From: Cyanidioschyzon merolae
Lineage: Eukaryota
NCBI GenBank assembly: GCA_000091205.1
Contig: AP006496.2
Strand: one strand, 5' to 3'
Length of the DNA stretch: 64,000 nucleotides
The notes under the pieces were generated by a model. That model was not told the origin of the DNA. It saw only the letters and a list, made by a program, of their open reading frames with translations, and searched no databases. Of the stretch, positions 1,151-56,944 are shown piece after piece (positions within the stretch are counted from its first letter, which is position 1; each line of letters starts with the position of its first letter). Both the position numbers and the translations under genes were made by a program.

Positions 1151-2689
1151 GCTCCATCATCCAAGAGAGACCGGGCTAACTGAGAGGCTGCCTGAGCCCA
1201 AAAGCCTCGTCGTCGGGGGCCCGCCTGTGCACCGTGAAAGCAGCGCAGTCGTGCCACTAGCACAACCAAAGGCCGACTCGGCAACACGCGTCACGCAAAG
1301 ACGCCACTGAAACTCTGAAGAAATGCCAATGCCTCTTCGCTATTTCTGTTTCCAGTGAAGAAACTAGAACGTTGTGTGCAACGTTGTGCCGCCACTACCA
1401 GTGAGACTCAGAGTTCCCGCCTCGCCATCCGAACCCTGAGACGCATCCAGACGTGTCAAGCCAGAAAACAGCGACGTAGTCATACTTTGTACTGAAAAGT
1501 GTCCTTTGAATCCACGCACCATCACCCGCCGCGTATCGGGTCTGAGCGCTAAAGTCTGACGGTGCTCGGCGCAACGGCAACAGATGCGTGGTCATGGCGC
1601 CGGGAGCGGCACGCCTAGTGGCGAGTCGTGCATCCGCTAATCTTGGTACCGAGCAAATGCCACTTATGAACGGGCGATCGAGTCGGTGACCACTGTAGGC
1701 CGCGCGAGCGCAGTGTTTCGGCAACAGCAGAGATAACCTCAGTTTTCAATCGGGGGATACGTGCCGGACAGGTTTGGTTGGGGTTGATTTGGGCAATTTT
1801 CGCAGAAAAGTTGGCAAGGAACACATTTCATCTGCGTGCGTTGCAGTAAACTGCAGATCGAGACAAGTCCATGCATCAGACGAGCTCTCCGGAAAGGAAA
1901 GCGATTGCAGGTAGAATCTCGTGTAGAACGATTCGCTGTGCATGCTGAGGCCGAGGACCCGCATTCGAGCCTGTGCAGGGTACGGTGCATATCGAGACGA
2001 CGATCCTGTGCGGTGTGCTCCAGGACAAGTCGGTTTCCCGTGAAGACGTACGAGCGTGATACAGTTTTACCACTCACGCACAAGATCCTATTATTGGTTA
2101 CTCCGCGAACAAATCCATACGAGACTCGGCGACCTGATCTCAGAGCCGTTTCTCATAGTGTGCAGGCAGCTAGAAATCGGCCATATATAGCGAGAGCGCA
2201 GCGAAACGGGAAATGGCCCCAGACAGGTACAATGGGTTGAGTATACGAGCTCGCTGCAGCGCAGCGTGGATCAAACGGATCTTGCGAGAAATAATATTCA
2301 TGCCACAAATCGGAAGTACAATCCGTGAATATTAATATTAGACATGGGGCATAGCATGTGCAACAGATGATGCCAAGCGCCCAGAGTTCGGAATGCGCAA
2401 GCACGGCGTTTCGCTGGGTATCCAATGCATCGAAACCTCTGGTAGGATTCGTTTACAGATCGAATTGGCGTCAGGAAGCAGAGCGCTTGCCGCCCATCAG
2501 GCCGATTTGCGAGGCGTACGACGATGGATCTGCGGGTGCTGTGCCTCTCCTGGTTCGGGGCTCCCGTTCTACTCAGAGCAGCGAATTCTGGACAAGTGTA
2601 CCATGATCCCATCTTGTTGTTGTTTGTTTTCTAGCAGGTATTGAACGCCGGCAGTGTAGAGGATTGGCGAGTGACCTGCCCCAGACGAA

Positions 2690-5150
2690 ACGTCTCCAAC
2701 TGACGTGCCGACGCCTCCGCGTCGATTTGGACCGGCCACCCACTACTGCTTTCAACTTCTTCTCATATAGTTCCACTTTGAGCGGTTATCCAACAAAGCC
2801 CTCTCGTGTCAACTCCGGGCGTCTTCGTTCCACCAGCGCATATCGCCTTAGATAGATAGCGGCGTCAAAGTCTCGGTTCACGAATTCCATCCGTTTCTTG
2901 CCATTGATTGCATACGCCAGTGCAAGCAATCCACGAACTTTTGCCCTCCTTTCCATTTGCTCCTCCGTCAGCGCTCGGTACTTTTTTATATTCTCAGGGC
3001 TCCGCTGACACTTTTCCATCTCCACTCTCTGAAGTGCACACCCCGGTTCGTGGTGTGTATACATTGTTCGGAACTCGTCTACAGGCATCGTAACAATACG
3101 CCGTGCGCACTCCTTGCACGCTCTCGTTGTTGGAGCTGGCGTAGTTCCTTTTTTGGACGCCCAGCGCCCTGCCGCATACGCTCCTACGAGCCTCTGACTC
3201 GCGTCCTATTTGAGGGCGCTCAACTCATTGAAAACGTTCGCGAATGCCCGCTGCCTCCCACAGTATAGATTCATTCGCAAACAATCACACCGGGGCTTGG
3301 TATACTCCTCCCACAGCGCATCCCAATGGGCAACATGAACTTCCATGAATTTCCGAAAAGCTCGAAAGTCCGCTCCCCGGCTCATGACCTCGCTCAAGGC
3401 TTCCAGGTGATCCTTCATTCCTGAATTCCAAGTCTCGATTTTCTTCCTTTTATCATTGTACCGGATTCGCGGTAGTATCTCGCTCGCGAGAATCTCAAGA
3501 GACGCATGTCTTTCTTACGTAAGTTACCGTCAGTACCGTCTTCCGCACGTCTGGGTGCAGCAATGGTGATGATATTCGTATTGCCAGGGTCCGCGCCAAC
3601 GACAAAGTCGTTATCCTGCACTTTCTGCGTGGCAGGATCCGCCTCCTTCTTTTCTTTCTCCTTCGTCATGTCAACGACAAGGTCGTTATCCTCCACCTCC
3701 TGCGTCGCAAGACCCGCCTCCTTCTTTTCTTCATGCTTCGTCGTGCCAACGACAAGGTCGTCATCCTGCATTTTCTGTGTCAAAGGATCCGCCTCCTTCT
3801 CATCTTCATCCTTCGCCACGTCAACGACAAAGTCGTTATCCTCCACCTCCTGCATCGCAGGATCCGACTCCTCCTTTTCTCCATCCTTCGTCACGGGCGC
3901 AGCCGAGGGCGGAACTGGCCGATCTTTCTTCAACCGCCGATAGTGTACACACAAGGCTACTCCATCGGTTTCGATCAACCCAGTGAATACCGTTTGCTTG
4001 CTCACTCTCAGACGTTTGAAATCGAAGATATTCTTCCAGTGGGTCTCCCGGTTTTCGCCGGAGAACTCCTCCCTGCTAACATCGAACTCGGGACTGATCT
4101 CTTTCATGCGGCGTCAAGGACTCTGGAGTCGATACTCACAAAATGTGACTTGAGGTTGCACACTGGAACGCCGTTGAAGCGCTTCCCCATTAGGACAGCC
4201 TTCCGTCTCTCCCACTCTTCATTTTTTCGCCTCTCAGCTTCATCTCCGCCTTGCGTTCGAGTTCTAGATCCAAAAACAAGAAATAGCGCAGAATGTGGCG
4301 ATACCATCTTTCCTTATCTTTTTTCAACTCTGATATCTTTTCTATTGGGTTCGCCAACCCCAGAACCGCACGGCGCTCTTGAATAGCCGCGCGGATTATA
4401 GAATCTTCATTCGTGCTCTCTTTTGACACCTTCTTGTCAACGAATTCGACCTCATTTTCACGCTTGCAATCGTTCGTGATGCCACTGATAATCACCCATT
4501 TTCCTTTGCGAGACAGGCCCGTGTAGAGCGCAAACACGGCGCGTATCATAAAACGTTCCAGGGTCATTGTAGAATGGTTCTTCAGATTCTTGAGGTATTT
4601 CATCGCTCCGTGTGTGTAAATATCCCGGTCACCCTTGTATCGAGTACCGTTGAAGCTCTAGAAGGGGTATGTTTTTGTGGAGGGCATGCACTAGCTCATT
4701 TTCCCGCCGCGCTTCCCCTGTACAAAGCGTCAGGCGTCGAATAAAGGTCATGTGGAAAAACCAGTCCGGAACCTCGCCTATTTTGATGTCCGTAACGTCA
4801 TCGTACATCTCCCTCGCCGCATGCATCAGTTCTAAAAAAGCCTTACGAACAGTCCTGGATTACAATTCGACACTGTTTCTGATGGCCTCTTGCAACTTTT
4901 GCCTGCACGGATCCTTGATGTGGCGTAGAAAACAGGCTTTCATCATCCTCTCATCTTACTGGTGTCTCACTTCTAGCTCCTTCTCGCCATGCCATGCCGT
5001 ACTCGTGCATGGAACAAGGCCCCCAGCGATTGTAGACGCTCCGAAAGCAGCATCGCGTGTTTCTAAGCATGTCAAGTTATGGCCTGGATCGCGTTTCCCA
5101 GCAACGGCGAGATGCGCGTTTTGTCCGGTTGTTGCCAGATCTCCAGGCGC
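2690..5150 (-). mobile_element. Fanzor/TnpB-like element copy F1 (degenerate; ORF broken into at least 5 pieces by frameshifts)
   Basis: Minus-strand ORF pieces 2786..3088 (RuvC-III NRDFDAAIY, RGLLAL), 3206..3418, 3415..4107 (Ruv[19 protein letters not shown] preceded by 4 x 25-aa acidic repeats), 4190..4603 and 4629..4826 (N-terminal domain) are collinear with the 750-aa consensus from copies F3/F5. The 3' noncoding tail is truncated relative to other copies. The 5' UTR motif ggatcgcgtttccc..gatctcc lies at 5085-5150. Confidence 0.7.
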
Positions 5151-6921: not shown

Positions 6922-8382
6922 ATGAGTGCTCAGATCCTTGCCCGAGTTGCTCGATCGGTGCATGTGCTATCGAAATCAGGTCAATGGTGGTACCTCGAAG
7001 CCCTCGTACCGCAGCGTCACTTTCGGAGGTGCTTTGCTGCAGCGAGCGCAGAGCTTCCGCCTCACATCAAGCTCCGTATGCCGGCTCTATCACCGACGAT
7101 GAAAGAGGGAAACCTGGTAAACTGGGTGAAAAAGGAGGGCGAACAGGTCTCGGCGGGCGACGTTCTTGCCGAAATTGAAACGGACAAGGCTACAGTGGAG
7201 TTTGAGTCTCAGGACGAAGGCATTCTGGCCAAGATTTTGGTGCCTGCTGGAACACAGAACGTTCCAGTGGGAACTCTTATTGCACTGCTGGCGGAAGAAG
7301 AAGCCGACGTTGCAAAACTTAGGGAAGCGCCTATTGAACCTGGAGAGAGCGAAGCGGCTTCTGTGAAGAAGCTGGAAACGCCGGCGCCGGAACAGCAGCC
7401 GGCTGAGGAAACCCCCCGAGCACCCGCAGAGGCGCGTACGGTTACCGCTCACGGGGGTGGCCCAGCTAAGCCTCGCACTGAGGCATCCAGAAACGAGACA
7501 TCGAGTGCTCCCAGTCGAGCCACGCCTGAGCCAGACTCGCGTCGTGCGCAGGTAGACGCGAGTCGGCATGCCGCGGATTCGACGGCGGCTCAGCGGCTCA
7601 AGGCTTCACCGTATGCACGGAAGCTTGCAGAGGAAAGCGGTGTTGATCTGTCCAGGGTGCAGGGATCGGGGCCCGACGGCCGCATTGTGGCTGCTGACCT
7701 CGAAGCCGCGCTCCGAACAGCAACACGACAAACCGTGCAGCAGCTACCCCTGGATCTGTTCGTTGAATCGAAGCGTACGATTCCGCACTACCAACTCGTG
7801 TCTGAAGTTCGACTGGACAGCGCGCAAGCTTGGCTGACTGCGCTCCAGAAGAAGCAAGAGCGTTCCACGGACGATGCTCTCGAACTGGAGGATTTCCTTG
7901 TCAAAGCACTGGCGACGGCTGCGCAACGTGTACCGTCGGTGAATGCGTCCTTTATGGGATCGAGCATCCGCGAGTATGCAAATGTCAATGTGCTGGTGCT
8001 CCCGAGCGACCCGAATTCGATGTACCGCGTGATACCAAATGCGCAAGCGATCGGTCTACGGGAAATTCACCGCATACGAACTGGTGGAGGTTCGGAACAA
8101 ACCCGCGAGAATGATGCCACCGATCTGGGCACCATCGGGTTTTCGCTGAATACCCACGTCTTACAAGAGATGGCAATCATTATCCCCCCGCATGCTGCGA
8201 TAGTGGTCTTCGGGAAACCAGATCAACGTGTGATCGCCGGCTCAAATGGAACGTTCGAAATCGGGACCTTCGCCCTGGTGACGGCTTCTTTTGATCACCG
8301 CGTTGTCGATGGTGCTGTTGGCGCTCAGTTCATGGCGCATCTCGCGGAGTATACGCGAGATCCCCTGTCGATGCTCGAGTAG
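6922..8382 (+). CDS. DLAT: dihydrolipoamide acetyltransferase, E2 of the pyruvate dehydrogenase complex (mitochondrial)
   Basis: Starting from the internal ATG at 6922: a presequence-like MSAQILARVARSVHVLSK, then the lipoyl domain MPALSPTMKEGNLVNWVKKEGEQVSAGDVLAEIETDKATVEFESQDEGILAKILV, an Ala/Pro/Glu linker, the E3-binding domain KASPYARKLAEESGVDLSRVQGSGPDGRIVAADLE, and a catalytic domain ending FDHRVVDGAVGAQFMAHLAEYTRDP. The ORF track extends 56 codons upstream (6754), which is probably untranslated. Confidence 0.8.
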   Translation: MSAQILARVARSVHVLSKSGQWWYLEALVPQRHFRRCFAAASAELPPHIKLRMPALSPTMKEGNLVNWVKKEGEQVSAGDVLAEIETDKATVEFESQDEGILAKILVPAGTQNVPVGTLIALLAEEEADVAKLREAPIEPGESEAASVKKLETPAPEQQPAEETPRAPAEARTVTAHGGGPAKPRTEASRNETSSAPSRATPEPDSRRAQVDASRHAADSTAAQRLKASPYARKLAEESGVDLSRVQGSGPDGRIVAADLEAALRTATRQTVQQLPLDLFVESKRTIPHYQLVSEVRLDSAQAWLTALQKKQERSTDDALELEDFLVKALATAAQRVPSVNASFMGSSIREYANVNVLVLPSDPNSMYRVIPNAQAIGLREIHRIRTGGGSEQTRENDATDLGTIGFSLNTHVLQEMAIIIPPHAAIVVFGKPDQRVIAGSNGTFEIGTFALVTASFDHRVVDGAVGAQFMAHLAEYTRDPLSMLE

Positions 8383-13698: not shown

Positions 13699-13920
13699 AC
13701 ACGAGCTAGAGAAACGTGATCCGCCAAGCGTGCAAAGTTAATCGACGCCACGAGCCTGCGCAGCGACGTTGCAAATAAGGCTTTTCGACTAAAAACAAAA
13801 ACAGGAAACGTATTATACAAGATATAGAAAAACAGAAGCCGACGGAGGGTGCACCGTCGACGTACCGAGCTCAAGATTCCAGCGCACGATCGCATCTCGC
13901 GAATCTTGTCACCACCGCCT

Positions 13921-15850
13921 ATCTAAAGACGCGTCGCCGGCGGTGCGCAGTACTGGTGGCGAACGCGCCTTAGACAAATCGTCTCCAACTGACGTGCCGA
14001 CGCCTCCGCGTCTATTTGGACCGGCCACCCACTACTGCTTTCAACTTCTTCTCATATAGTTCCACTTTGAGCGGTTATCCAACAAAGCCCTCTCGTGTCA
14101 ACTCCGGGCGTCTTCGTTCCACCAGCGCATATCGCCTTAGATAGATAGCGGCGTCAAAGTCTCGGTTCACGAATTCCATCCGTCTCTTGCCATTGATTGT
14201 ATACGCCAGTGCAAGCAATCCACGAACTTTTGCCCTCCTTTCCATTTGCTCCTCCGTCAGCGCTCGGTACTTTTTTATATTCTCAGGGCTCCGCTGACAC
14301 TTTTCCATCTCCACTCTCTGAAGTGCACACCCCGGTTCGTGGTGTGTATACATTGTTCGGAACTCGTCTACAGGCATCGTAACAATACGCCGTGCGCACT
14401 CCTTGCACGCTCTCTTTGTTGGAGATGGCGTCATTCCTTTTTTGGACGCCAAGCGCCCTGCCGCATACGCTCCTACGAGCCTCTGACTCGCGTCCTATTT
14501 GAGGGCGCTCAACTCATTGAAAACGTTCGCGAATGCCCGCTGCCTCCCACAGTATAGATTCATTCGCAAACAATCACACCGGGGCTTGGTATACTCCTCC
14601 CACAGCGCATCCCAATGGGCAACATGAACTTCCATGAATTTCCGAAAAGCTCGAAAGTCCGCTCCCCGGCTCATGACCTCGCTCAAGGCTTCCAGGTGAT
14701 CTTTCATTCCTGAATTCCAAGTCTCGATTTTCTTCCTTTTATCATTATACCGGATTCGCGGTAGTATCTCGCTCTCGAGAATCTCAAGAGACGCATGTCT
14801 TTCTTACGTAAGTTACCGTCAGTACCGTCTTCCGCACGTCTGGGTGCAGCAATGGTGATGATCTTCGTATTGCCAGGGTCCGCGCCAACGACAAAGTCGT
14901 TATCCTGCACTTTCTGCGTGGCAGGATCCGCCTCCTTCTTTTCTTCCTCCTTCGTCATGTCAACGACAAGGTCGTTATCCTCCACCTCCTGCGTCGCAAG
15001 ACCCGCCTCCTTCTCATCTTCCTGCTTCGACGCGCCATCGACAAGGTCGTTATGCTGCACTTTCTGTTCTGTGTGGCAGGATCCTCCTCAATGTTTTCTT
15101 CATCCTTCGTCACGGACGCAGCCGAGGGATGGACTGGCCGATCTTTCTTCAACCGCCGATAGTGTATACACAAGGCTACTCCATCGGTTTCGATCAACCC
15201 AGTGAATACCGTTTGCTTGCTCACTCTCAGACGTTTGGAATCGAAGATATTCTTCCAGTGGGTCTCCAGGTTTTCGCCGGTGAAGTCCTCCCTGCTAACA
15301 TCGAACTCGGGACTGATCTCTTTCATGCGGCGTCAAGGACTCTGGAGTCGATACTCACAAAATGTGACTTGAGGTTGCACATTGGAACGCCGTTGAAGCG
15401 CTTCCCCATTAGGAAATCCTTCCGTCTCTCCCACTCTTCATTTGCCTCTTCACTCAGCTTCATTTCTGCCTTGCGTTCGAGCTCTCGGTCCAGAAACGCG
15501 AGGTACCGCAGGACGAGGCGATAGTATCTTTCCTTATCTTCTTTCAACTCTGATATCTTGTCTGTCGAATCCGCCAACCCCAGAACCGCAGGGCGCTCTT
15601 GAATAGCCGCGCGGATTACAGAATCTTCATTCGTGCTCTCGTTTGACGACCTCTTGTCAAAGAATTCAATCTTATCTTCATGCTTACGATGGTTCGTGAT
15701 GCCGTTGATAATCGCCCATAGCCACTTGCAAGAGATACCCTGGGTACAGTGCAAACACGGCACGTATCATAAAACGCTCCAGGTTCACGATCATATGATT
15801 CTTCAGATTCGTGATGTGCGTACTCGGCCTGTCACAATTTACTCTGGCAT
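13921..15850 (-). mobile_element. Fanzor/TnpB-like element copy F2 (5'-truncated, multiple frameshifts)
   Basis: Minus-strand ORF pieces 14075..14452 (CxxC-like region, RGLLAL, NRDFDAAIY), 14495..14707, 14704..15060 ([17 protein letters not shown] with 3 acidic repeats), 14955..15326 and 15323..15763 are collinear with the F3/F5 protein. The conserved 3' tail is at 13921-14074. The N-terminal ~250 codons are missing, and the copy abuts a partial X/R2 repeat at ~15850. Confidence 0.7.
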
Positions 15851-16240
15851 TAAGAGCGGGCGGCCTGCGTCATGGCGTCGCCCTGGTCCTAACAGACTCC
15901 TAGCACGTCGCTTCACGCTGTTGCAGGCAGCAGATCTGGCTGCCCAGTTGTCAGGCTCCCAGAATGATTACGTATTCCGACTCCGTATCAGGTGAAACCT
16001 TCCTCGATACGACGCCCTCAGTGGTATCGCAAAGCCGTTCTGTGTCCGTTCAGCATTGGCATCAGCGCTACAGGCGCTTTCGCTGGAGCTCAAATCAGAC
16101 ACTCGGGGCACAACAGGACGTACAAAACTACCGGTGTATCCAAAATGATGCATTAGTAATGGGCTTTGATGGTAGATGCGTCATGATGGACGCTTTTTCG
16201 ACTACCAATATCCATCTCGCCGGCTGAGATCCCCGGTCAA
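15850..16240 (+). repeat. X(partial)+R2 short interspersed repeat, copy A
   Basis: 15911-16240 aligns by eye with 42313-42650, 54114-54448 and the reverse complement of 60600-60835. Shared strings: ctcccagaatga, cgacgccctcagtggta, gcaaagccgttctgt, gatggacgcttt..ccaatatccatc. Confidence 0.6.
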
Positions 16241-18630: not shown

Positions 18631-19144
18631 CTGTAGACGTCAACACTGAGCACTGCACCGTACTGCACTGCACCGCACCGCACCGGCACAAACGTGTTGC
18701 GAGCGCTGGTCCACGAGAAGCCCAGAGAATGCGAGTCGCCACCACGAGCTCTCCGCCGATGCTGCCCACTGGCGCATGCAGATCAACTGGATCGATCGCC
18801 AAGTGGCGGTGCCTCCAGCAGTGCGGCATGGCTGCGGCGCGATGCGCGCATCGATGCTCCTCAGCGGCGCGCGCACGTACATGTGCGCACCGCAAGCGCT
18901 GGTATCTGGCGCTGGGTGCCTCGCATATACCCCGGGTACGGGGCCGGCGCCGCTGCACAGCACAGTAGCGAGCTGCGGCGGCTGCGGCGGCTGCGGCGGC
19001 TGCCATCGCCGGCGAGCGCTTGCCCCGCCTCCCGCAGTCGGAGCGTGCGCCTCGCGATCCGCCGTAGCGGTAGCGATCGGACTCGTGAGGCACGTTGTTG
19101 TTGTGCAGCTCGTCCAGTGTCTGCAGTGCAGTTGTGCAAGTATC

Positions 19145-19819
19145 ATGTCGTTCGCGCTACCCAGTCTGCTTTATGACTATGCGGCCTTGGAGCCACATAT
19201 TGATGCGTTGACGATGCAGATTCACCACACGAAGCATCATGGCACGTACATCAACAACTTGAACGGAGCTATCCAGGGTGAGCACGGCGGCTCGCTGAAA
19301 GGTCTCTCCCTGGAGGCCATCTGCCGGAACGTGAATTCGGCTCCAGAGGCAGTCCGGACTACGGTCCGTAACAACAGTGGCGGGCACTGGAACCACACCT
19401 TCTTCTGGACTATTATGGCACCAAGCGGCACAGCGGCGTCGGCGCCCAGCGGGGCACTCAAGAACGCCATCGAGTCGCAGTTTGGGAGCGTGGATTCATT
19501 CAAGGATCAGTTCAACAAGGCGGCTGCAGGACGTTTTGGATCCGGATGGGCCTGGCTCTGCATGAACCAGAATAAGCAGTTGTTCATCACGAGCACCCCG
19601 AACCAGGACAACCCGCTCATGAGCGGTATTGCGGAGAAACCCGGCTTGCCTATCCTGGGTCTCGATGTCTGGGAACACGCCTATTACCTCAAGTACCAGA
19701 ACCGTCGACCGGAATACATCGCTGCTTGGTGGAACGTTGTGAACTGGGACACTGTAGCCAAGTACTATGACGAAGCGTCTTCCGGGAAAGCGCCGGTACT
19801 CGATGTGCCTCTGCAGTGA
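19145..19819 (+). CDS. iron/manganese superoxide dismutase
   Basis: From ATG 19145: [40 protein letters not shown]...[10 protein letters not shown]...FGSGWAWL...[22 protein letters not shown], all canonical Fe/Mn-SOD metal-ligand and signature segments, 224 aa. The ORF track extends 123 codons upstream through a GC-rich (GGCGGCTGC)n stretch. Confidence 0.9.
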
Positions 19820-20016
19820 CTAGACAGCGTCACATCTTACCCTATGGCGTTCCGTGGGCGTCTTTAGGTCTGATAAGGAATGTCTTAAAAGGAATGCGTA
19901 TTGGTCGTTTGGTCCATGCGTCTCCAGAAGCAGGTTATTCGCCCGAAGTACCAGCAGCGCTTCGTTTTCAGCGCAGCAGCAGCAGCAGAAGCAGAAGCAG
20001 AAGCAGAAGCACTGCA

Positions 20017-25873: not shown

Positions 25874-25907
25874 ACGCGTGCCCGCTTGAGACGACCCGCA
25901 CCATCAA

Positions 25908-26000
25908 CGCCGCTCGAAAGTCGAACGGCGCCAACGGTGTACAGTAGTGGCGGCAACCGCGCCCTAGACGAGACGTCTCCAACGGGCGTGCAGACGCCTC
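25908..26000 (-). ncRNA. candidate omega-RNA (fRNA) scaffold region of copy F3: the conserved 3' end of the ORF plus the noncoding tail
   Basis: Sense sequence after the stop, ...ctagggcgcggttgccgccactactgtacaccgttggcgccgttcgactttcgagcggcg, is conserved with copies F2, F4 and F5 and then diverges exactly at the element end. No structure or expression evidence is available. Confidence 0.25.
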
Positions 26001-28318
26001 CCAGTTTGTTTGAACCGGAAACCCACTACTGCTTCCAACTTCTTCTCATATTGTCCCACTTTAAGAGGTTGTCCAAGAAAATTCTCTCGTGTCCACTCTG
26101 GAGGTCTTTTCTCCAGGACCGCACATTTCCTTGTATTGATGGCGGCATTCAAATCTCGGTTCACAAACTCCATCCGTTTCTTCCCATTGGTAGTTGTACT
26201 TCCTAGTGCACCTAGTCCTCGCACTTTCACTCTCCTTTCCATTTGCTCTTCCGTCAGCGGTCCGTACTTTTTCATATCCTCAGGGCTCCGTTGGCACGTT
26301 TCCATCTCGACCCTCTGAAGTATACACCCCAGTTCATGGTATGTATAGGACGTTCGGAACTCACCTACAGGTAGTGTAACAAACCGGTGTGCGCACTCCT
26401 TGTACGTTCTTGTCGTTGGAGCTGGTGTACACAATTTTTGGGTCTTCCATCGCCCCGCCCCATACGCTGCTACGAGCCTCTGACTTTCATCCTCCTTCAG
26501 GGCGCTCAACTGATTGAAAAAGTTGGCAAACGCCCGCTGCTTCCCACAATACAAATTCATTCGGAAACGAGCCCACCGGGGCTTGGTATACTCCTCCCAC
26601 GGCGCATCCCAATGGGCAACATGAACTTTCATGAATTTCCGAAAAGCTTCAAAGTCCGCTCCTCGGCTCGCCACCTCGCTCAAAGCTTCTAGGTCATCCT
26701 TCATTCCTGAATTCCGGCTCTCGATTTTCTCCCTCGCATTCATTATACCCGATTCTCGATTGTATCTCGCTATCGAGAACCTCAATAGACGCATGTCTTT
26801 CCGACGTAAACTACCGTCAGTACCATCTTCCGCACACTTCGGTGCTGCGATGGTGATGATATTTGTGTTTCCGGGGTCCGCGCCAACGACAAAGTCGTTA
26901 TCGTGCACTTTCTACGTCACAGGGCCCGCCTCCTTCTTTTCTTCATGCATCACCGCGTCAACGACAAGCACGTTATCCTCCACCTCCTGCGTCTCAGGAC
27001 CCGCCTGCTTCTTTTCTTCATGCATCGCCGCGTTAACGACAAGGTCGTTATGTTGCACTTTCTGTGTGGCAGGATCCGCCTCCTCCTTTTCTTTATCCAT
27101 TGTCACGGGCACACCCGAGGGCGGGACTAAACGATCTGCCTTCAAACGCCGATTGTGTACTCACGTGGCTACTCCATCAGTTTCGATCAACCCAGTAAAT
27201 ACCGTTTGCTTGCTCACTCTCAGACGTTTGAAATCGAAGATATTCTTCCAGTACGTCTCCCGGTTTTCGCCGGAGAGTTCCTCACTGTTGAAATTAAACT
27301 CGGGACTGATCTCCTTCATGATGCCGTAAAGGACGCCTGAATCGATACTCACCAAATGTGACTTGAGGTTGCACATTGGAACACCGTTGAAGCGCTTCCC
27401 CATTAGGAAAGCCTTCCGTCTCCCCCACTCTTCAGTGTTTTCCTCACTCAGCTTTATCTCCGCCTTGCGTCCAAGTTCTAGATCCAGAAACAAGAAATAG
27501 CGAAGAATGAGGCGATAGTGTCTTTCCTTATCTTTTTTCAACTCTGATATCTTTTCTGCTGGACTCGGCAGCCCCAGTACCCCACGGCGCTCTTGAATAG
27601 CCGCACGGATGACAGAAGTTTTACACCTTCTCCTGCGTGACGCCTTCTCTCCGACGAATTCGATCTCATCTTCATGCTTGTGATCGTTCGTGATGCCATT
27701 GATAATCGACCATACTCCTTTGCGAGACAGGCCCGGGTACAGCGCAAACACGGCGCGTATCATGAAACGTTCGAGGTTCATCGTCAAATGGTTCCTCAGG
27801 TTCGTGAGGTAATTCATTGCCCCGTGTTCGTAAATATCCCGGTTACCAATGTATCGAGTGCCCTCGAAGCGGAATTCCGCGAAGTTTTCGTGGAGGGCGT
27901 GTACCCGCTCATTTTCCCTCCGCGTTTCCCTTGCGCCGAGCATCAAGTGACGAACAAAGATATTGTCGAAAAACTCGTCTGGAATCTCGACTGTTTCCAT
28001 GTGCGTCACATCGCGATACATCTCCCTCGCCATACGCATCAGTCCTGAAGACGCCCTGACAATACTCTTGGAGTACGAATCGAGACGTTTTTTGATAGCG
28101 TCTCGCAACTTTTCCCTGTACGGATCCTTGATATGTTCAAGAAGACCGGCTTTCACCACCATATCGTCGTACAGTTGTCTTTCTTTCCGCCTTCGACGTA
28201 GGGCCTCTCCCCTTTGCTTCTTCTTCTCTTCCTTTTCTACTCGACTCGGCACTGTTTTTTGTTTTTTTCTAGCAGCCGGCGACCCTGGGCCTCCAGGATC
28301 GTCGACTTGCTTTTTCAT
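25964..28318 (-). pseudogene. Fanzor1-like TnpB-family RuvC nuclease gene of copy F3 (about 750 codons, 2 frameshifts)
   Basis: N-terminus is basic (KKQKTVPSRVEKEEKKKQRGEALRRRRKERQ). RuvC-I is [17 protein letters not shown] (D at 26878-26876). The Zn-finger-like region is YKECAHRFVTLPVGEFRTSYTYHELGCILQRVEMETCQRSPE. RGLGAL follows. RuvC-III is FVNRDLNAAINTRKC (D at 26155-26153). Confidence 0.7.
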
Positions 28319-28572
28319 AGGTTTCCTTTTTTTTTAGTTTTTTGAAAAAGAACGCTCTTTGAACCCTTATGTAATATACTGCGAACAAACACTTGACTAG
28401 ACTTATTTGAGGGTGAAACACAAATGAACTCAAAAACTGTACTTTGCTACGACTTTAACGCAAATAAAACTTGTACAGTAGAGCAGTGCGCTCCTGATCA
28501 GGATCGCGTTTCCCTTCAATGGCGACATGCGCGTCGTGTCAGGTGACTGCCTGATCTCCCGGGTGCGCTCAC

Positions 28573-29150
28573 CGAGCGCGATTTTTAGAATGGACAAAAC
28601 GTTTCCTTGTGCCAGCGTTCTCCGATTGTGCGCATTTTTCTTTTCTTTCTCTCTTTTTGTGTTTTTTTCAGTGCGCGGTGAGGTATCCATCAACCCCCTA
28701 CCTCCATGTTACATTACCGATACTTCATCGCGGATATTCTGGTCGTTTCATACGTCCTATGATGTGTGCCTAGTACCTGCCGTGCCGTACCCGCCTTTGG
28801 ACCTTAACAGCTGGGGCAGATAGTTCATAGAGACAGAACGGCTTTTCCATACCACAGAGGGCGCCGGCTCGAGGCGTGGTTTACCCGACGTAGAATTGGG
28901 TGTCGCCGTCAGTTTGTGCTCAGACAGTCTGCGGATGCAGGTTTGTCTTCGCTGCACGAAACGCTGGAGACACTTGGCTGTTAGGATATATCGTGGGAGC
29001 CGCCTCTCTCTTTCGTGATCATGCATGGAATGCGTTGTTGTCGGTTGGCAATGTGGCTTCGTGCTTGACACCCACCCACCACTGTGGGTAGGCGCAGAAA
29101 GCACTGGGCCCGTGTGCGCATCCGATTCGCTAGACCTTCCGCCTAGAAGG
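28573..29150 (+). repeat. R3 interspersed repeat (~590 bp), copy 1
   Basis: Near-identical by eye to 48990-49575. The first ~150 bp (gccagcgttctccgattgtgcgc..polypyrimidine..cagtgcgcggtgaggtatccatcaaccccctacc) are also at 60420-60600. Confidence 0.7.
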
Positions 29151-49575: not shown

Positions 49576-49905
49576 TTCGCTGGACCTTGCGCCCAGAAGG
49601 TACCCTTGATGCCGATGCGCGTCGCGCACATTAGCATAAGCGCATAACCTGGACAATCCGACACCATCCACCATGCAAGCTGCGGAAGGCAGTTTGGTGG
49701 CGCCATTCGTGCCAGAGGCGCTGCTGCGCTTTCGGTTGCGCGCGCTGGCCATCGAGGTAGCGCGAATGCTCGCCAAAGTGCGCGCACAGCTCGCGCAACG
49801 GAATCCTGTGTGGGGTGTAGCGAATTCTCCCCCCCAGGTACCGCTACGCTGCTGCACTGAGGTCGACTCCAAAAGGGTGCCTGTTGGAGGCGTGAACCGC
49901 CATCA

Positions 49906-51285: not shown

Positions 51286-51400
51286 CGCCTTAAAAGTCGA
51301 ACGTCGCCGGCGGCCGTGTACAGTAGTGGCGAGAAACCCGCCCTAGATAAAACGTCTTCAGCTGACGTGCAGACGCCTCCCAGCTTTTTTGGACAGGCTA
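51286..51400 (-). ncRNA. candidate omega-RNA scaffold region of copy F4
   Basis: Sense tail after the stop, agacgttttatctagggcgggtttctcgccactactgtacacggccgccggcgacgttcgacttttaaggcg, is conserved with F2, F3 and F5 up to the last base and then diverges. Confidence 0.25.
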
Positions 51401-53790
51401 CCTACTACTGCCTCCAACTTTTTCTCATACAGCTCCACTTTGAATGATTGCGCAACAAAGTTCTCTCGTGTCAACTCTGGAGGTCTTCTTTCCACCACGG
51501 CACATCTCCTTATATTGATAGCGGCGTTAAAGTCACGATTCACAAACTCCATACGTTTCTTGCCATCTTTGTTTGTACACAGTAATGCGAGTAGTCCACG
51601 AGCTTTCGCCCTGCTTTCCATTTGCTCCTCCGTCAACGCTCCGTACTTTTTTACATCCTCAGGGCTTCACTGGTACTTTTCCATCTCCACTCTCTGAAGC
51701 GTACAACCCACTTCATGGTGTGTATACGACGTCCGGAACTCATCTACAGGTATCGTAACGAGATGCCTTTCACACACCTTGTGCGTTCTTGTAGCTGGAG
51801 CTAGCCTAGTCCCTTTTTCCCACGCCTACCGCCCTGCCCAATACGCTTCTACTAGCCTCTGACTGTCGCTCTCCTTCAAGGCGCTCAACTCATTGAAAAA
51901 ACTCGTGAACGCACGCTGCCTCCCACCGTGTAGATTCATACACAACCGAGCCCACCGGGGCTTTGTATACTCCTCCTACAGCGCCTCGCAATGAGCAACA
52001 CGAACTTCCATAAACTCCCGGAAAGCGTGAAAGTCCGCTCCCCGGCCCGTCACCTGGCTGATCGCTTCCAGGTGCTCTTTCAATCCTGCGTTCCACGCCC
52101 CACTTTTCTTCCTTTATTCATTACACTGAATTCTCGGTAATATCTCGTTCTTGAAAGCTTTAAAACACGCATGTGTTTTTGACGTAGGTTGCCGTCGATG
52201 CCATCATCCCCGCAATTGCGTGTTGTGATGGTCATGATATTCGTGTTCCCAGGGCCCGCGCCAACGACAAAGTGGTTCTCATGCACCTCCTGCTTCGTGG
52301 GGCTAGCCTCTTTGTTTTCTTCACGCTTTGCCAGCGACGGCAACGAAGACAGAACTGGACGATCCGCCTTCAAGCGCCGATAATGTACACGCATGGCTAT
52401 CGCATCACTTTCGATCATCCCAGTAAAGTCCTTTTTCTTGCTCGTTCTGAGACGTTTGGAATCGAAGATATTCTTCTTCCAGTACGTCTCCTGGTTTTCA
52501 CCGGTGAACTCCTTGTTGCTTACATCGAACACTGGACAGATCTCCGTAATGATGCCGTAAGGGATTTCGGAGTCGATACTCACAAAATGTGACTTGATGT
52601 TGCACAACGGAACGACGTTGAAGCGCTTCTCCAGAAGCGCAGCTTTCCGTTTCTCCGTCACTGCATTTGCTTCAACACCCTGCTCCATATCGGTCTTGCA
52701 TTTCAGTTGTCGGTTCAGGAATATGGTATAGCGCAAGATGAGGCGATCGTATCTTTCCGAATCTTTTTTCAACTCTGATATCTTTTCTGCTGGACTCGCC
52801 AGCCCCAAGACCACACGATGCTCTTTAATAGCTGCACGGATTACAGAATCCTCATTTGCTCTCCTGCGTGATGTCTTCTCGTGAACAAATTCGATCTACT
52901 GTTCATTCTTACTATCGTTTGTGATGCCATCGATGATGGTCCATATCCCTTTGCGAGAGGGGCCCGGGTAGCGCGTACAGACGGCGCGTATCATGAAACG
53001 TTCCAGGTTCATGGTCAAATAGTTCTTCAGGTTCGTGAGGTGCTTCATAACCCCGACGGTGTAAATACGCGAGTCACCCCTGTCTCGAGTACCGTTGAAG
53101 CGGAATTCGGCGTAATTTTCGTGGAGGGCATGCACCCGCTCATTTCTCCTCGACGTTTCCCCTGTACCAAGCATCAGGTGACGAATAAAGGTTTTGCCGA
53201 AAAATTCTTCCAGAACCTCGACTGTTTTGATGCCCGTTGCGTCGTCGCGCATCTCCTTCACCAAATGCATTATACCTGCAGAAGCCATCATAACACTCAT
53301 GGAGTCTGACTCGATACGGTTTCTGATGGCCTCTCGCAGCTTTCGCCGGGACGGATCCTTGATATGTGCGAGAAGACAGGTTTTCACCACCATCTGGTCG
53401 TACTGTCGTGTTTCGTTCAGCTTCTGACCTCGGGCCTCCCTCTTTTGCTCCATCGTCTTCTCATGTTCCTTTTAGCTCCGCCATGTTTTTCCTTAGTCTC
53501 CGGCAGTCGACGACACCAGATGTCCAGGATCCTCCAGTTTCTTTTCCACAACTTTTTCATTATTTTTGAAGAAGAAGAAGGCTCTTTCAACGCTTCTGAT
53601 ATGAATCGCTAAAATTGATTTGAATACACTAACTTGAGGTTTGAAACACAATTGCATTAAACAACTTTAATTTGTTACGACTTTAACGCAAATACAACTT
53701 GTACGGTAGAACAATAAGAAAACGGATTTTCACAATTTCGCGTTTCCTTTCAACGGCGACACGTGCGTCTTGTCTCGTACGACCTGATCT
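51286..53790 (-). mobile_element. Fanzor/TnpB-like element copy F4 (full length, frameshifted)
   Basis: Minus-strand ORF pieces 51358..51636 (RGLLAL..FVNRDFNAAINIRRCAVVE), 52080..52814 ([14 protein letters not shown] with a single acidic repeat unit) and 52896..53453 (N-terminal domain, starting MEQKREARGQK...). The conserved 3' tail is 51286-51357. The 5' UTR (gactttaacgcaaatacaacttgtac, cgcgtttcctttcaacggcgacacgtgcg...ctgatctccccggcgcgc) ends at ~53790, where repeat X begins. Confidence 0.75.
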
Positions 53791-53814
53791 CCCCGGCGCG
53801 CTAACCGACCGCAG

Positions 53815-54448: not shown

Positions 54449-54802
54449 AATATAAGTGTTTTTCCATCGGAAAAATGAAGCGTGTAGCTCTAACGTACAA
54501 ATTGTAACGATGTTCAAGTCGTAGAAAAATACATTGTTTGTCCTCAATCGTGTTTCAACCTTCACTCTAGTGTATTCAAGTGCTTTTTCGTGCGTAATAG
54601 CTGTCCCATCCAAAGTGGTTTCGGTTTTTATATTGAAAAAGGAAAGTTACGGAAGTGGAAGTGTAGGATCCTGGGCGTCAATGTCGCCGGCAGCCCGAAA
54701 AAACGAAGAACAGTGCCAAGTGCAAAGGAACAGGATAAGAAGAAGAAGTAAAAGTGGAAGGCCCTACGTCAAAGGCTACACAAAAGACGACGGTACGACG
54801 AG

Positions 54803-56838
54803 ATGGCGGTGAAAGCCTGTCTTCTTCAACATACCAAGGATCCGTACAGGGAAAACGTTCGAGAGGCAATATGGAACCGTGTCGAGCCGAACTCCAGCGG
54901 TGTTCGTGATGCTTCTCAAGGAATGTTGCATTTCCTAAGAAAATGGTATCATGACGTTACGGACATCAAAACAGTCGATATTCTGGGTGAATTTTTCAAC
55001 AAAACCTTTATTCATCACTTTATGCTTGGCACCGGGGAAACGTCTAGGTGAAATGAGCGAGTTCATGCCCTCCACAAAATTTACGCCGAGTTCCGCTTCG
55101 ACGGTACTCGATACAGGGGGGATTGGGATATTTACATCTACGGGGCGATGAAGTACCTCACCAGTCTAAAGAACCATTTAACAATGAACCTCAAAAGCTT
55201 CATGATACGCTCCATCTTTGCACTCTACCCCGGTCTCACTCGTCAGGGGATATGGGCGATTGTCAATGGCAACACGAACGATCGCAAGCATGAAGATGAG
55301 ATTGAATTCATCGACGAGAAGAAATCACTCAGGAGCATGAATGAGGATTCCGTCATCCGAGCGGCTATACAAGAGCATCGTACGGTACTGGGGTTGGCGA
55401 ACCGAGCAGCAAAGATATCAGAGTTGAAAAAAGATAACGAAAGATACTATCGCCTCGTCCTGCGTTACTTTGTGTTTCTGGGCCGTGAGCTCGAACGCAA
55501 GGCAGAGATGAAGCTGAGTGAGGAAAAAATGAAGAGCGGGGGAAACGAAAGGCTGCGCTTCTGGGTAAGCGCTTCAACGTCGTTCCGTTGTCCAACATCA
55601 AGTCACGTTTTGTGACTATCGATTCCAGAATCCTTTACGGCATCATGAAAGACTTCAGCCCCGAGTTTAATGTCAGCAGGAAGGAGAGTACCGGTGAAAA
55701 CCGGGAGACGTACTGGAAGAATATGTTTGATTTCACACGTCTGAAAGTGGGCAAACAAAAGGTATTCACAGGGGTGATCGAAACCGATGGAGTAGCCATG
55801 TGTATTCACTATCGGCGCTTGAAGGCGGATCGTCCAGTTCCGTCTTCGATAGTGTCCGTGACGAAGCATGAAGATGAGAAGGAGGCGGATTGTGCCACAC
55901 AGAAAGTGCAGGATAACAACTTTGTCGTTGGCGCGGACCCTGGGATTACGAATATCGTAACCATCGCTGCTCCCAAGCGTGCGGAAGATGGTAACGACGG
56001 TAACACACGTCAGAAAGGCATGCGTCTGTTGAGGTTCTCGAGAGCGAGATACCACCGAGGATCCGGCGTAATGAATGCAAGGAAGAAAATCATTACATGG
56101 AATTCAGGAATGAAAGAGCACCTGGAAGCTTTGAGCGAGGTGACGAGCCGAGGAGCGGACTTTAACGCTTTTCGGGAGATTATGGAAGTTCGCGTTGCTC
56201 ATTGGGATTCGCTGTGGGAGGAGTATACAAAGCCTCGACGGGCTCGTCTGCTTATGAACCTGTATTGTGGGAAGCGGCTTGCATTCGCCAACTTTTTCAG
56301 TCAGTTGAGCGCCTTGAAGGAGGATGAAAGTCAGAGGCTCGTAGTAGCATACCGAGCAGGGCGCTGGGCGTCGAAAAAAGGAACTACGCCAACTCCAACG
56401 ACAAGAACGTACAAGGAGTGCGCACGGCGCTTCGCTACGATACCTGTAGATGAGTTCCGAACATCCTATACAAACCATGAACTGGGGTGCACGCCTCAGA
56501 CGGTCGAGATGGAGAAGTGTCAGCGAAGCCCTGAGGATATACAAAAGTACGGACCGCTGACGGAAGAGCATATGGGAAGGAGGGCGAAAGTTCGAGGGCT
56601 ACTTGCACTAATGAGTACAACCAATGATAGTAAGAAACGTATGGAGTTTGTGAATCATGACTTAAATGCCGCGATCAATATCAAGAGATGTGCGGTGCTG
56701 GAGAAGAGACCTCCAAACTGGACAAGAATGAACTTTATTGGACAACCTCTCAAAGTCAAACTATATGAGAAGAAGTTGGAAGCAGTAGTAGGCGGCCGGT
56801 CCAAGAAAACTGCGAGGCGTCTGTACGTAAGTTGGTGA
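54803..56838 (+). pseudogene. Fanzor1-like TnpB-family RuvC nuclease gene of copy F5
   Basis: RuvC-I is [18 protein letters not shown] (D at 55936-55938). The Cys-containing region is YKECARRFATIPVDEFRTSYTNHELGCTPQTVEMEKCQRSPE. RGLLAL follows. RuvC-III is FVNHDLNAAINIKRCAVLEKR (D at 56659-56661). Confidence 0.7.
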
Positions 56839-56907
56839 TGTCTAGTCTGGGGCGCGGCGATCGCCACTACTGTACCACTGGCGACAGCGTTTTTCTTTTG
56901 AAAGGCG
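56740..56907 (+). ncRNA. candidate omega-RNA scaffold region of copy F5
   Basis: After the stop at 56836-56838: tgtctagtctggggcgcggcgatcgccactactgtaccactggcgacagcgtttttcttttgaaaggcg. This is conserved with the other copies and diverges at 56908. Confidence 0.25.
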
Positions 56908-56944
56908 TTGGTTTCCAGGGGCGCGCGCTACAGCAACGCCTCTG

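What the first reader, a model, noticed from the sequence alone, without database searches (positions are those of the whole stretch)
3590..3900. In-frame 75-bp (25-aa) acidic VNTR just N-terminal of the RuvC-I motif, varying from 1 to 4 units between copies
The unit reads roughly [15 protein letters not shown][10 protein letters not shown]. The unit count is 4 in F1 (3415..4107 ORF), 3 in F2 (14704..15060), 3-4 with frame slips in F3 (26909-27160), and 1 in F4 and F5.

A tandem coding repeat of variable number inside a nuclease is unusual. It may be a flexible linker between the N-terminal domain and the RuvC core, and it is the site of the frameshifts in F3.
Basis: seen in the sequence. Interest (0 to 1): 0.5.

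Follow-up and report, generated by a model that had tools for sequence, protein, structure and literature searches.

The report
Variable acidic repeat in Fanzor1 linker
A 75-base (25-amino-acid) acidic coding repeat, present in one to six head-to-tail copies, expands a floppy linker just before the nuclease active site of an already known Fanzor1 transposon family of the red alga Cyanidioschyzon merolae; it is real and apparently undescribed, but it looks like a tolerated, weakly constrained expansion rather than a new mechanism.

Summary
The repeat is real. Twelve unit cores lie exactly 75 nt apart in five element copies: 4 (F1), 3 (F2), 3 (F3), 1 (F4) and 1 (F5). All are on the coding strand, and the last unit abuts the GADPG RuvC-I motif.

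One detail is wrong. F3 has no frame slip, only an in-frame TAG in its last unit. The frameshift sits in unit 1 of F2.

The window is Cyanidioschyzon merolae 10D, and the elements fit the published CMe-1A Fanzor1 family. Fanzor1 identity rests on a profile hit to PpFz1 (E=5.5e-16), a fold match to SpuFz1 (TM 0.70) and an invariant D/E/D triad.

In 64 non-identical arrays from hot-spring metagenomes and this window, unit number runs from 1 to 6. The three fully open ORFs carry 3-4 units.

The array is predicted to be disordered (pLDDT about 30). It sits at a linker whose length varies in all Fanzor1 relatives. It also lacks the third-codon-position excess of diversity seen in the adjacent RuvC region.

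Best reading: a coding minisatellite that expands a tolerant WED-RuvC linker by slippage or unequal recombination. A regulatory role for its strong negative charge is not excluded.

The parts
3598..3897 (-). F1 array: 4 units of 75 nt (u4 3897-3823, u3 3822-3748, u2 3747-3673, u1 3672-3598). It is open in frame and encodes 100 aa with net charge -20.
3583..3597 (-). F1 RuvC-I motif G-A-D-P-G (catalytic Asp), directly after the last unit
   Evidence: the Asp is invariant in alignment A4
14887..15113 (-). F2 array: 3 units. Unit 1 (15037-15113) is 77 nt, with a 5-nt ACAGA duplication and a 3-nt deletion, which gives a +2 frameshift.
26885..27109 (-). F3 array: 3 units in one frame, with an in-frame TAG (CAG>TAG) at 26912-26914 in the last unit
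52263..52337 (-). F4 single unit. The following RuvC-I motif reads GAGPG, so the catalytic Asp is lost.
55855..55929 (+). F5 single unit, followed by GADPGIT
2646..4967 (-). F1 element copy (CMe-1A-like Fanzor1 pseudogene). It is 5'-truncated and changes frame several times.
13910..15819 (-). F2 element copy, 5'-truncated. It is 96-100% identical to F1 on both sides of the array.
25902..28579 (-). F3 element copy. The whole gene is in one frame, interrupted by two stop codons.
51293..53812 (-). F4 element copy, with frame changes
54487..56912 (+). F5 element copy, inverted relative to F4. A 438-aa ORF (55522-56835) covers the WED-side strands, the single unit and the whole RuvC part.

Best explanation
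The feature is a coding minisatellite inside the Fanzor1 gene of the CMe-1A transposon family of Cyanidioschyzon merolae.

Origin (inferred). The ancestral protein had one copy of the segment ([10 protein letters not shown] + [14 protein letters not shown]) linking the last WED-side beta hairpin (..[15 protein letters not shown]..) to the first RuvC strand (..DFVVGADPG). A 75-nt duplication copied this segment, including the lead-in of RuvC strand beta-1. Replication slippage or unequal homologous recombination between units has since raised and lowered the count, from 1 to at least 6. Because 75 is a multiple of 3, each gain or loss keeps the reading frame.

In the protein (model-based). Only the last unit feeds into the RuvC fold. 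The earlier units form an acidic, disordered loop (about -4 to -5 charge per unit) on the surface between the two lobes. This site tolerates length changes throughout Fanzor1.

Consequence. The array is largely a tolerated, weakly constrained expansion and is not required for catalysis.

What is shown: the anatomy, the unit counts, the Fanzor1 fold, the predicted disorder, the relaxed constraint and the open multi-unit ORFs. What is inferred: the mutational mechanism and the lack of a specific function.
For: Anatomy and counts.

Family-wide quantisation. The distance between flanking anchors is 27/31, 52/56, 81, 102/106, 130/131 or 156 aa in 64 homologous proteins. It is 66/78, 141/153, 216/228, 291/303, 375/378 or 453 nt in 79 DNA arrays. 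Among 64 non-identical arrays the unit counts are 1:20, 2:12, 3:17, 4:9, 5:4 and 6:2. Both sub-lineages, which are marked by a 12-nt indel just upstream, span several unit counts.

Fanzor1 identity. D484, E656 and D725 are invariant in alignment A4. The A4 profile hits Parasitella Fanzor1 9cf0 at E=5.5e-16. Foldseek matches SpuFz 9ceu at E=3.7e-16 with TM 0.70.

Disorder. In the model of P0007 (4 units), residues 374-471 have pLDDT below 50 and no secondary structure. The strand at 479-484 is DFIVGA, leading into D484.

Tolerant site. The TDG-to-DPG distance in 67 distant relatives has a median of about 40 aa (32-55), with outliers of 73-121 aa and unrelated sequence.

Relaxed constraint. Diversity at codon positions 1/2/3 is 0.22/0.20/0.21 in last units and 0.26/0.20/0.24 in other units. 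In the next 300 nt of RuvC it is 0.138/0.111/0.247.

Compatible with open genes. The three loci where one ORF spans both the N- and C-terminal anchors have 4, 4 and 3 units.

Turnover. F1 and F2 are 96-100% identical on both sides of the array but differ by one unit and in the 5' units. A few adjacent units are 91-100% identical, against a median of 79%. Two of 17 orthologous locus groups differ in unit number.
Against: Internal units keep a recognisable motif ([11 protein letters not shown]-x-E-x-x-K-E-A) and a uniform negative charge. That could reflect function rather than recent common origin.

The only fully open full-length ORFs found have 3-4 units, not 1 (n=3, and two of these are the same locus).

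The disorder call rests on one AF2 model with a 17-sequence alignment (pTM 0.67).

The codon-position test mixes paralogous units and many pseudogenes.

The two cases of orthologous loci with different counts involve near-identical units. They could be collapse errors in short-read assembly.

No experiment shows that any CMe-1A Fanzor1 is active.
Confidence: 0.7

Rival explanations
1. The acidic array is a functional, tunable module. In this reading it is a disordered polyanionic tether next to the nucleic-acid channel and the RuvC site. It would act as an intramolecular DNA/RNA mimic that damps non-specific binding or nuclease toxicity, or it would recruit a basic partner such as histones or importins. 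Unit number would set the strength of the effect.
For: The net charge is -20 over 100 aa in F1. In P0007 the array is -15 against +33 for the rest of the protein. The acidic pattern and the QxVxDNDxVV motif are kept in internal units. The fully open ORFs carry 3-4 units. Linkers at this position in many distant relatives are instead Lys-rich, so the charge has been inverted in this lineage.
Against: Diversity shows no third-position excess in the units, unlike the adjacent RuvC region. One-unit copies are the commonest class. Unit number varies freely in both sub-lineages. Motif retention is expected simply from the age of the duplications, since units are about 79% identical, much like whole copies to each other.
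Confidence: 0.12
2. The units form a structured repeat, for example beta-hairpins stacking onto the WED or RuvC sheet, or alternative beta-1 strands that can swap into the RuvC fold. In this reading they are not a disordered loop.
For: Each unit ends in the hydrophobic strand-like D-N-D-F/L-V-V. This is the sequence that forms RuvC beta-1 in the last unit, and it is conserved as N-D-x-V-V-G-x-D-P-G in distant relatives.
Against: The AF2 model gives pLDDT of 25-35 and no strands for all but the last core. The composition is 33% D+E and 13% K. Internal units lack the G-x-D-P-G that follows the strand. Constraint on the units is relaxed.
Confidence: 0.05
3. The repeat matters at the DNA or RNA level rather than in the protein. 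It could be an internal regulatory or binding-site array, or a recombination hotspot that drives gene conversion among copies. Its coding sense would then be incidental.
For: Within the tract where F1 and F2 are 96-100% identical, the differences between them are concentrated in the array. Unit 1 of F2 resembles the first unit of F3 more than those of F1, which suggests exchange between copies.
Against: The array is always in frame with the flanking coding sequence and on the coding strand in 76 of 79 arrays. No independent copies of the unit exist outside Fanzor genes in the window. In solved Fanzor1 systems the guide RNA maps to the 3' end of the element (PMC10432273, from reading the paper).
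Confidence: 0.03
4. The variation in unit number is an artefact of assembly.
For: Short-read assemblers collapse near-identical tandem units (general point, PMC6868369). The two orthologous-locus differences, L014 vs L031 and L017 vs L018, involve near-identical units.
Against: The window matches the C. merolae 10D chromosome record, and its arrays of 4, 3, 3, 1 and 1 units are built from units that are only 74-87% identical to each other. Such units cannot collapse. Most metagenome arrays also have diverged units, with a median identity of 79%.
Confidence: 0.02

Closest known systems
CMe-1A Fanzor1 element of Cyanidioschyzon merolae (Bao & Jurka 2013, PMC3627910)
   Same: The organism is the same. 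The protein is a Fanzor1. The element is about 2.7-3 kb with a single ORF. Copies are old and 75-86% identical to each other, most are degenerate and some are open. A separate repeated module lies 5' of the gene.
   Different: The main text of the paper does not mention an internal coding tandem repeat or variation in unit number. I could not compare with the Repbase consensus sequence itself.
Solved Fanzor1 nucleases SpuFz1, PpFz1 and GtFz1 (8GKH, 9CEU-9CF3)
   Same: The overall fold matches (TM 0.70 to SpuFz). A profile built from the family hits them. The D/E/D RuvC triad is shared (SpuFz1 D383/E541/D606). All have a non-conserved linker between the last WED-side strands and RuvC beta-1.
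   Different: Their linkers are single-copy and about 35-50 aa. The C. merolae family reaches about 177 aa through 25-aa tandem units and is acidic. The lineage-specific insertion in PpFz1 (the FRI domain, about 100 aa, which binds cyclophilin; PMC11423790) lies inside RuvC and is folded, so it is not a repeat in this linker.
Intragenic coding minisatellites (for example yeast FLO/adhesin repeats and other protein tandem repeats with variable unit number; from general knowledge and PMC3995336 and PMC6868369)
   Same: The units are head-to-tail and in frame, tens of bases long. Unit number changes by slippage or recombination without breaking the frame. Such repeats are often found in disordered regions.
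   Different: Here the repeat sits in a transposon-encoded RNA-guided nuclease directly before a catalytic motif. It varies mainly among paralogous copies of a repeat family rather than among alleles of one gene.
Bacterial TnpB / Cas12f
   Same: The RuvC core is the same, the motif order is the same (x-x-V-V-G-I-D-x-G, then D-E-x-x-T-S, then N-x-D-x-N-A-A-x-N-I), and both have a WED-RuvC junction. There are weak hits to the Cas12f1-like TNB model PF07282 and to Cas12 structures.
   Different: No Pfam hit is significant for the C. merolae proteins themselves. The prokaryotic proteins are compact and have short junctions.

Membership tests
Fanzor1 (eukaryotic TnpB-like nuclease) | RuvC-I Asp, RuvC-II Glu and RuvC-III Asp in the conserved motif contexts | tested here: met
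   D484 (G-x-D-P-G), E656 (D-E-F-R-T) and D725 (N-R-D-x-N-A-A-x-N-I) are invariant in the 17-sequence alignment A4. F1, F2, F3 and F5 keep GADPG, while F4 has GAGPG.
Fanzor1 (eukaryotic TnpB-like nuclease) | Sequence-profile similarity to an experimentally characterised Fanzor1 | tested here: met
   The A4 profile hits Parasitella parasitica Fanzor1 (9cf0) at E=5.5e-16 and Guillardia theta Fanzor1 (9cer) at E=0.003. Single-sequence searches found nothing.
Fanzor1 (eukaryotic TnpB-like nuclease) | Fold of WED/REC/RuvC/TNB as in solved Fanzor1 | tested here: met
   The AF2 model of P0007 (pLDDT 75, pTM 0.67) matches SpuFz 9ceu at E=3.7e-16 with TM (target) 0.70, and also PpFz and GtFz. The next best hits are Cas12 proteins at E of 1.8e-3 or weaker.
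Fanzor1 (eukaryotic TnpB-like nuclease) | Zinc-finger / TNB domain between RuvC-II and RuvC-III | tested here: inconclusive
   There are only sub-threshold PF07282 hits: E=0.23 in P0007 and E of about 0.002 in two distant relatives. The Cys/His pattern was not examined in detail.
Fanzor1 (eukaryotic TnpB-like nuclease) | omega-RNA encoded at the 3' end of the element, and RNA-guided DNA cleavage | not testable with these tools
   A conserved tail of about 60-90 nt follows the stop codon in all five copies. No RNA or activity data were available.
CMe-1A element family (Bao & Jurka 2013) | Found in C. merolae; about 3 kb; many old copies about 80% identical; encodes Fanzor1; has a 5' module shared with another repeat (TE-N2_CMe) | tested here: met
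   The host gene in the window is identical to C. merolae 10D BAM81162.1. Copies are 75-86% identical over 2.3-2.7 kb. Separate repeated segments lie 5' of the gene. The published description was read. There was no direct comparison with the consensus sequence, which is not held here.
Coding minisatellite / VNTR | Head-to-tail units of 10-100 nt, with a length that is a multiple of 3, in frame with the ORF | tested here: met
   The 75-nt units are spaced exactly 75 nt apart.
Coding minisatellite / VNTR | Unit number differs between copies | tested here: met
   The window has 4, 3, 3, 1 and 1 units. Across 64 non-identical arrays the count runs from 1 to 6.
Coding minisatellite / VNTR | Unit number is polymorphic at one orthologous locus between individuals or strains | tested here: inconclusive
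   Two of 17 orthologous groups (flanks at least 98.7% identical) differ, 3 vs 5 units and 2 vs 3 units. The extra units are near-identical, and short-read assembly collapse cannot be excluded.
Intrinsically disordered inter-domain linker | Predicted lack of structure, length variation at the homologous position, and relaxed sequence constraint | tested here: met
   pLDDT is below 50 and the region is coil at residues 374-471. The linker is 32-121 aa in distant relatives. Diversity is even across codon positions. All of this is computational.

The most novel reading that the evidence does not exclude
The 25-aa acidic units form a copy-number-tunable autoinhibitory tether. In this reading a polyanionic, disordered nucleic-acid mimic sits at the mouth of the RuvC and heteroduplex channel and sets how readily this Fanzor1 loads or cleaves DNA. 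Repeat gain and loss would then act as a fast evolutionary 'rheostat' of transposon nuclease activity or toxicity in a tiny, recombination-proficient genome.
Probability: 0.08. Interest if true: 0.65.

Novelty: new variant of a known kind. Interest (0 to 1): 0.3.

Why it matters
It adds a natural length series to Fanzor biology. The WED-RuvC junction of a Fanzor1 carries 25 to about 150 extra residues while some of the genes stay fully open. That is useful to know for engineering, because it marks a permissive site for insertions, tags or fused domains in compact Fanzor/TnpB editors. The series of 1-6 units is also a ready-made way to test whether a charged tether next to the active site modulates activity. 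The unit count and unit types give a convenient marker for tracing sub-lineages, gene conversion and turnover of the roughly 150 CMe-1A copies in Cyanidioschyzon genomes and hot-spring populations. If the array proves functionally neutral, as I think most likely, it is a tidy but ordinary example of a coding minisatellite in a disordered loop.

Tried and rejected
Searches and models that gave nothing:
- Single-sequence Pfam, NCBIfam and PDB searches with the window ORFs and with P0007 gave no significant hit. The precomputed 'PF26935 DUF8286 (weak)' label is uninformative. Only a profile built from distant relatives reached solved Fanzor1.
- An AF2 model of the window's own 438-aa F5 ORF with the shallow family-only alignment A1 failed (pLDDT 32.7) and was not used.
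- Literature searches for Fanzor plus tandem repeat, disordered or linker found nothing about such repeats.

Explanations rejected:
- A chance or low-complexity artefact, because of the 12 exact-register hits against 0 in shuffles.
- A frameshift hotspot in F3, because F3 lies in one frame.
- The long ORFs on the opposite strand across the array (3506-3943 and 3733-4386), which are by-products of the repeat.
- A strict 150-nt higher-order period. TRF scores period 150 slightly better (85% vs 79%) and E-type and K-type cores alternate in F1, but unit-to-unit identities (u4-u2 84%, u3-u1 83%, u2-u1 84%, u4-u1 83%) do not clearly favour it.

Test not pursued: comparing stop-codon density inside and outside the arrays, because it would not discriminate between the hypotheses.
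Full report
**1. What is in the sequence**

Tandem Repeats Finder reports a period-75 array at 3597-3893 (4.0 copies, 79% matches, no indels, score 391). It reports shorter arrays of the same unit at 14883-15060 and 26878-27100. A degenerate 30-mer for the unit core (CAGRARGTGSAGGATAACGACYTTGTCGTT, up to 3 mismatches) hits exactly 12 times, against none in 100 dinucleotide-preserving shuffles. The hits are:
- 3598, 3673, 3748 and 3823 on the minus strand;
- 14887, 14962 and 15037 on the minus strand;
- 26885, 26960 and 27035 on the minus strand;
- 52263 on the minus strand;
- 55900 on the plus strand.

Spacing within each array is exactly 75 nt. Identity at lag 75 is 0.79 in 3598-3897, against 0.264 +/- 0.048 for the whole window.

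**2. The five element copies**

Self-comparison of the window shows five copies of a 2.3-2.7 kb element:
- F1, about 2646-4967
- F2, about 13910-15819
- F3, about 25902-28579
- F4, about 51293-53812
- F5, 54487-56912, inverted relative to the others

Copies are 75-86% identical, apart from a near-identical tract shared by F1 and F2. There is also a diverged 5'-truncated sixth copy at 61120-61988 that lacks the array region. The gene is on the minus strand in F1-F4 and on the plus strand in F5.

**3. Units in register**

Cutting back in 75-nt steps from the first codon of G-A-D-P-G gives clean units.
- F1 has four units (3897-3598): [25 protein letters not shown] / [25 protein letters not shown] / [25 protein letters not shown] / [25 protein letters not shown], followed by GADPGNT.
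- F2 has three units (15113-14887).
- F3 has three units (27109-26885).
- F4 has one unit (52337-52263).
- F5 has one unit (55855-55929).

The counts 4/3/3/1/1 and the position 'just N-terminal of RuvC-I' are correct.

One detail in the finding is wrong. F3 has no frame slip. The whole F3 gene aligns to a 752-aa homologue in a single frame, and its array carries only a CAG>TAG change at 26912-26914. The frameshift inside the repeat is in F2 unit 1, where a 5-nt ACAGA duplication plus a 3-nt deletion give a net +2.

None of the five copies is intact:
- F1 and F2 are 5'-truncated and change frame.
- F3 has two stop codons.
- F4 changes frame and has RuvC-I Asp>Gly.
- F5 changes frame in the N-terminal half.

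**4. Which organism and which element**

The neighbouring ORF 6922-8379 is identical to dihydrolipoamide acetyltransferase BAM81162.1 / XP_005537198.1 of Cyanidioschyzon merolae 10D, on an 852,727-bp record.

Bao & Jurka (2013, PMC3627910) described one Fanzor1 family in this alga, CMe-1A. It has about 150 copies that are about 80% identical to the consensus. The element is about 3 kb, with no TIRs and no identifiable TSDs. Some copies are still open, and the 5' 635 bp is shared with another repeat, TE-N2_CMe. The copies in the window fit this description. The main text of that paper does not mention an internal coding repeat.

**5. Is it really a Fanzor1?**

Single-sequence searches of Pfam, NCBIfam and the PDB gave nothing significant.

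A profile of the family searched against 1.84 billion representative proteins found 1,494 relatives at E<=0.001. These include many 600-700-aa proteins at 28-40% identity. In the joint alignment the only invariant acidic residues in motif context are:
- D484 in G-x-D-P-G;
- E656 in D-E-F-R-T;
- D725 in N-R-D-x-N-A-A-x-N-I.

A profile of that alignment hits Parasitella parasitica Fanzor1 (9cf0, E=5.5e-16) and Guillardia theta Fanzor1 (9cer, E=0.003).

An AF2 model of the open 752-aa homologue P0007 (4 units; pLDDT 75, pTM 0.67) matches solved Fanzor1 structures. These are SpuFz (9ceu, E=3.7e-16, TM 0.70 normalised to the target), PpFz and GtFz. Cas12 proteins follow far behind. Membership in Fanzor1 is therefore supported by motifs, profile and fold. 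The omega-RNA and the activity could not be tested.

**6. Where the array sits in the protein**

In the model, the hairpin E350-358/E362-370 (..[17 protein letters not shown]..) is followed by residues 374-471, which have pLDDT of 25-35 and no secondary structure. Then comes strand 479-484 (DFIVGA), leading into D484. The array occupies 383-481. So every unit except the last ten or so residues of the last unit is predicted to be a disordered loop between the WED-side sheet and RuvC beta-1.

Each unit contains a copy of the beta-1 lead-in (D-N-D-F/L-V-V). This motif is conserved as N-D-x-V-V-G-x-D-P-G even in distant relatives. The duplication unit therefore spans the end of the linker plus the start of the RuvC fold.

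**7. Equivalent linkers in other taxa**

In 67 distant representatives the distance from T-D-G to D-P-G has a median of about 40 aa (32-55). A few outliers reach 73-121 aa, with unrelated and often low-complexity sequence. Many of these linkers are Lys-rich, and one has a SAP-like motif.

The one-unit C. merolae form is 52 aa and the six-unit form is about 177 aa. So the position is a general hot spot for length variation in Fanzor1. The C. merolae family is the extreme case, and the only one seen here that is built from tandem units.

**8. Family-wide census**

Among 64 homologous metagenome proteins that span both flanks, the inter-anchor distance falls in classes 25 aa apart, corresponding to 1-6 units.

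Eighty metagenome loci were fetched with their DNA. Of these, 72 span the array. With two further loci fetched earlier and the five window copies, this gives 79 arrays. Their inter-anchor lengths are 66/78, 141/153, 216/228, 291/303, 375/378 or 453 nt.

Counting each distinct array once gives 64 arrays: 20 with 1 unit, 12 with 2, 17 with 3, 9 with 4, 4 with 5 and 2 with 6. Two sub-lineages, distinguished by a 12-nt indel just upstream, each span several unit counts. Gains and losses have therefore occurred repeatedly.

Only F2 and one metagenome locus (L080/L084) are out of frame within the array. Six distinct arrays carry a stop codon.

For intactness, one ORF spans both an N-terminal and a C-terminal anchor in only three loci. 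These are L002 and L010 (the same locus, 4 units) and L024 (3 units). All other loci are broken somewhere, whatever their unit number. Multi-unit arrays are thus compatible with fully open genes.

**9. Dynamics**

Units at the same position are orthologous between copies: F1_u1 and F2_u1 are 99% identical, F1_u2 and F2_u2 93%, and F1_u2 and F3_u2 87%. Units within one array are only 74-87% identical. The family-wide median for adjacent units is 79%, with a few recent duplications at 91-100%. Most arrays are therefore old and not homogenised, with sporadic recent gain or loss.

F1 and F2 are 96-100% identical from about 4224 down to 2680 on both sides of the array. They differ by one unit and strongly in the 5' units. 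The first unit of F2 resembles that of F3. This suggests recombination or conversion within the array.

Among 17 groups of orthologous loci (3' flanks at least 98.7% identical), two differ in unit number: 3 vs 5 and 2 vs 3. In both cases the extra units are near-identical. Collapse in short-read assembly cannot be excluded, so I treat true allelic polymorphism as likely but unproven.

**10. Constraint**

Nucleotide diversity by codon position is:

| Region | Position 1 | Position 2 | Position 3 |
|---|---|---|---|
| First 300 nt of the RuvC region | 0.138 | 0.111 | 0.247 |
| Last units | 0.22 | 0.20 | 0.21 |
| Other units | 0.26 | 0.20 | 0.24 |

The RuvC region shows the expected signature of purifying selection. 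The units show no third-position excess. This argues that the peptide sequence of the array is weakly constrained. What is retained is composition: 33% D+E, 13% K, a net charge of about -4 to -5 per unit, -20 for F1, and -15 in P0007 against +33 for the rest of the protein.

**11. Interpretation**

The best-supported explanation is a coding minisatellite that expands a tolerant, disordered WED-RuvC linker. Unit number would change by slippage or unequal recombination between 75-nt units, and the frame is preserved automatically because 75 is a multiple of 3.

The main rival is that the polyanionic loop is functional, acting as an autoinhibitory nucleic-acid mimic or a partner-binding module tuned by unit number. 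The charge pattern is suggestive, and so is the fact that the few open ORFs have 3-4 units. The codon-position data and the abundance of one-unit copies speak against strong selection.

Readings as a structured repeat, as a function at the DNA level, or as an artefact are less likely; the evidence is given under each rival.

**12. Novelty and verdict**

The element and its Fanzor1 protein are already known. The variable 25-aa tandem array in the linker appears not to have been reported in the literature I could search. It is a new variant of a known kind, of modest interest. It marks a natural permissive insertion site and provides a natural length series next to the RuvC active site. It does not indicate a new mechanism.

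Noticed in passing
window 52248-52262 (minus strand), F4: The RuvC-I motif of F4 reads G-A-G-P-G instead of G-A-D-P-G, so this copy has lost the catalytic Asp in addition to its frame changes.
   Followed up: partly
window 2680-4224 (F1) versus about 13972-15440 (F2): F1 and F2 share a tract of about 1.5 kb at 96-100% identity. It is flanked upstream by only 74-91% identity. Inside the tract, the only strongly different stretch is the 5' part of the repeat array. This looks like a recent conversion or duplication with a rearranged array.
   Followed up: partly
window 28593-29152 and 49048-49602; 15908-16238, 42121-42646, 53917-54402 and 60674-61016: Other repeated segments (66-87% identical) lie just 5' of the Fanzor genes and also occur alone. 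They may be the TE-N2_CMe-like 5' module that Bao & Jurka describe for CMe-1A.
   Followed up: partly
window 38570-38975 (minus) and 41752-41919 (plus): There are further short Fanzor-like relics. One is 31-36% identical to the C-terminal RuvC part of P0007, so it probably comes from a more distant lineage. The other is 54% identical over 57 aa.
   Followed up: no
window 51293-53812 (minus) and 54487-56912 (plus): F4 and F5 form a head-to-head inverted pair. Their 5' ends face each other across about 675 bp.
   Followed up: no
window 20017-20244: A perfect 114-bp tandem duplication (2.0 copies, 100% identical) lies just downstream of a superoxide-dismutase-like ORF (18776-19819). It is preceded by a (GCAGAA)n run at 19973-20011.
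   Followed up: no
L039 (metagenome contig Ga0080006_1193548) versus window F3: A JGI metagenome contig carries the same locus as F3. It has 97.8% identity over the element, 99.8% in the flank, and the same TAG in the last unit. Genomes very close to C. merolae 10D are therefore present in those samples.
   Followed up: partly
proteins P0227, P0163, P0155, P0240 and others (distant Fanzor1 relatives): The WED-RuvC linker of other lineages carries unrelated insertions. These include a 121-aa stretch with a SAP-like motif (Pfam SAP, E=0.002), an acidic Asn/Glu-rich stretch and a Pro/Ala/Ser-rich stretch. Many ordinary linkers are Lys-rich, the opposite charge to the C. merolae units.
   Followed up: partly
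window 2646-2790, 13910-14078, 25902-25967, 51293-51361 and 56835-56912: A conserved non-coding tail of about 60-90 nt follows the stop codon in all five copies and ends abruptly at the element boundary. This is where a Fanzor omega-RNA would be expected. It was not analysed.
   Followed up: no
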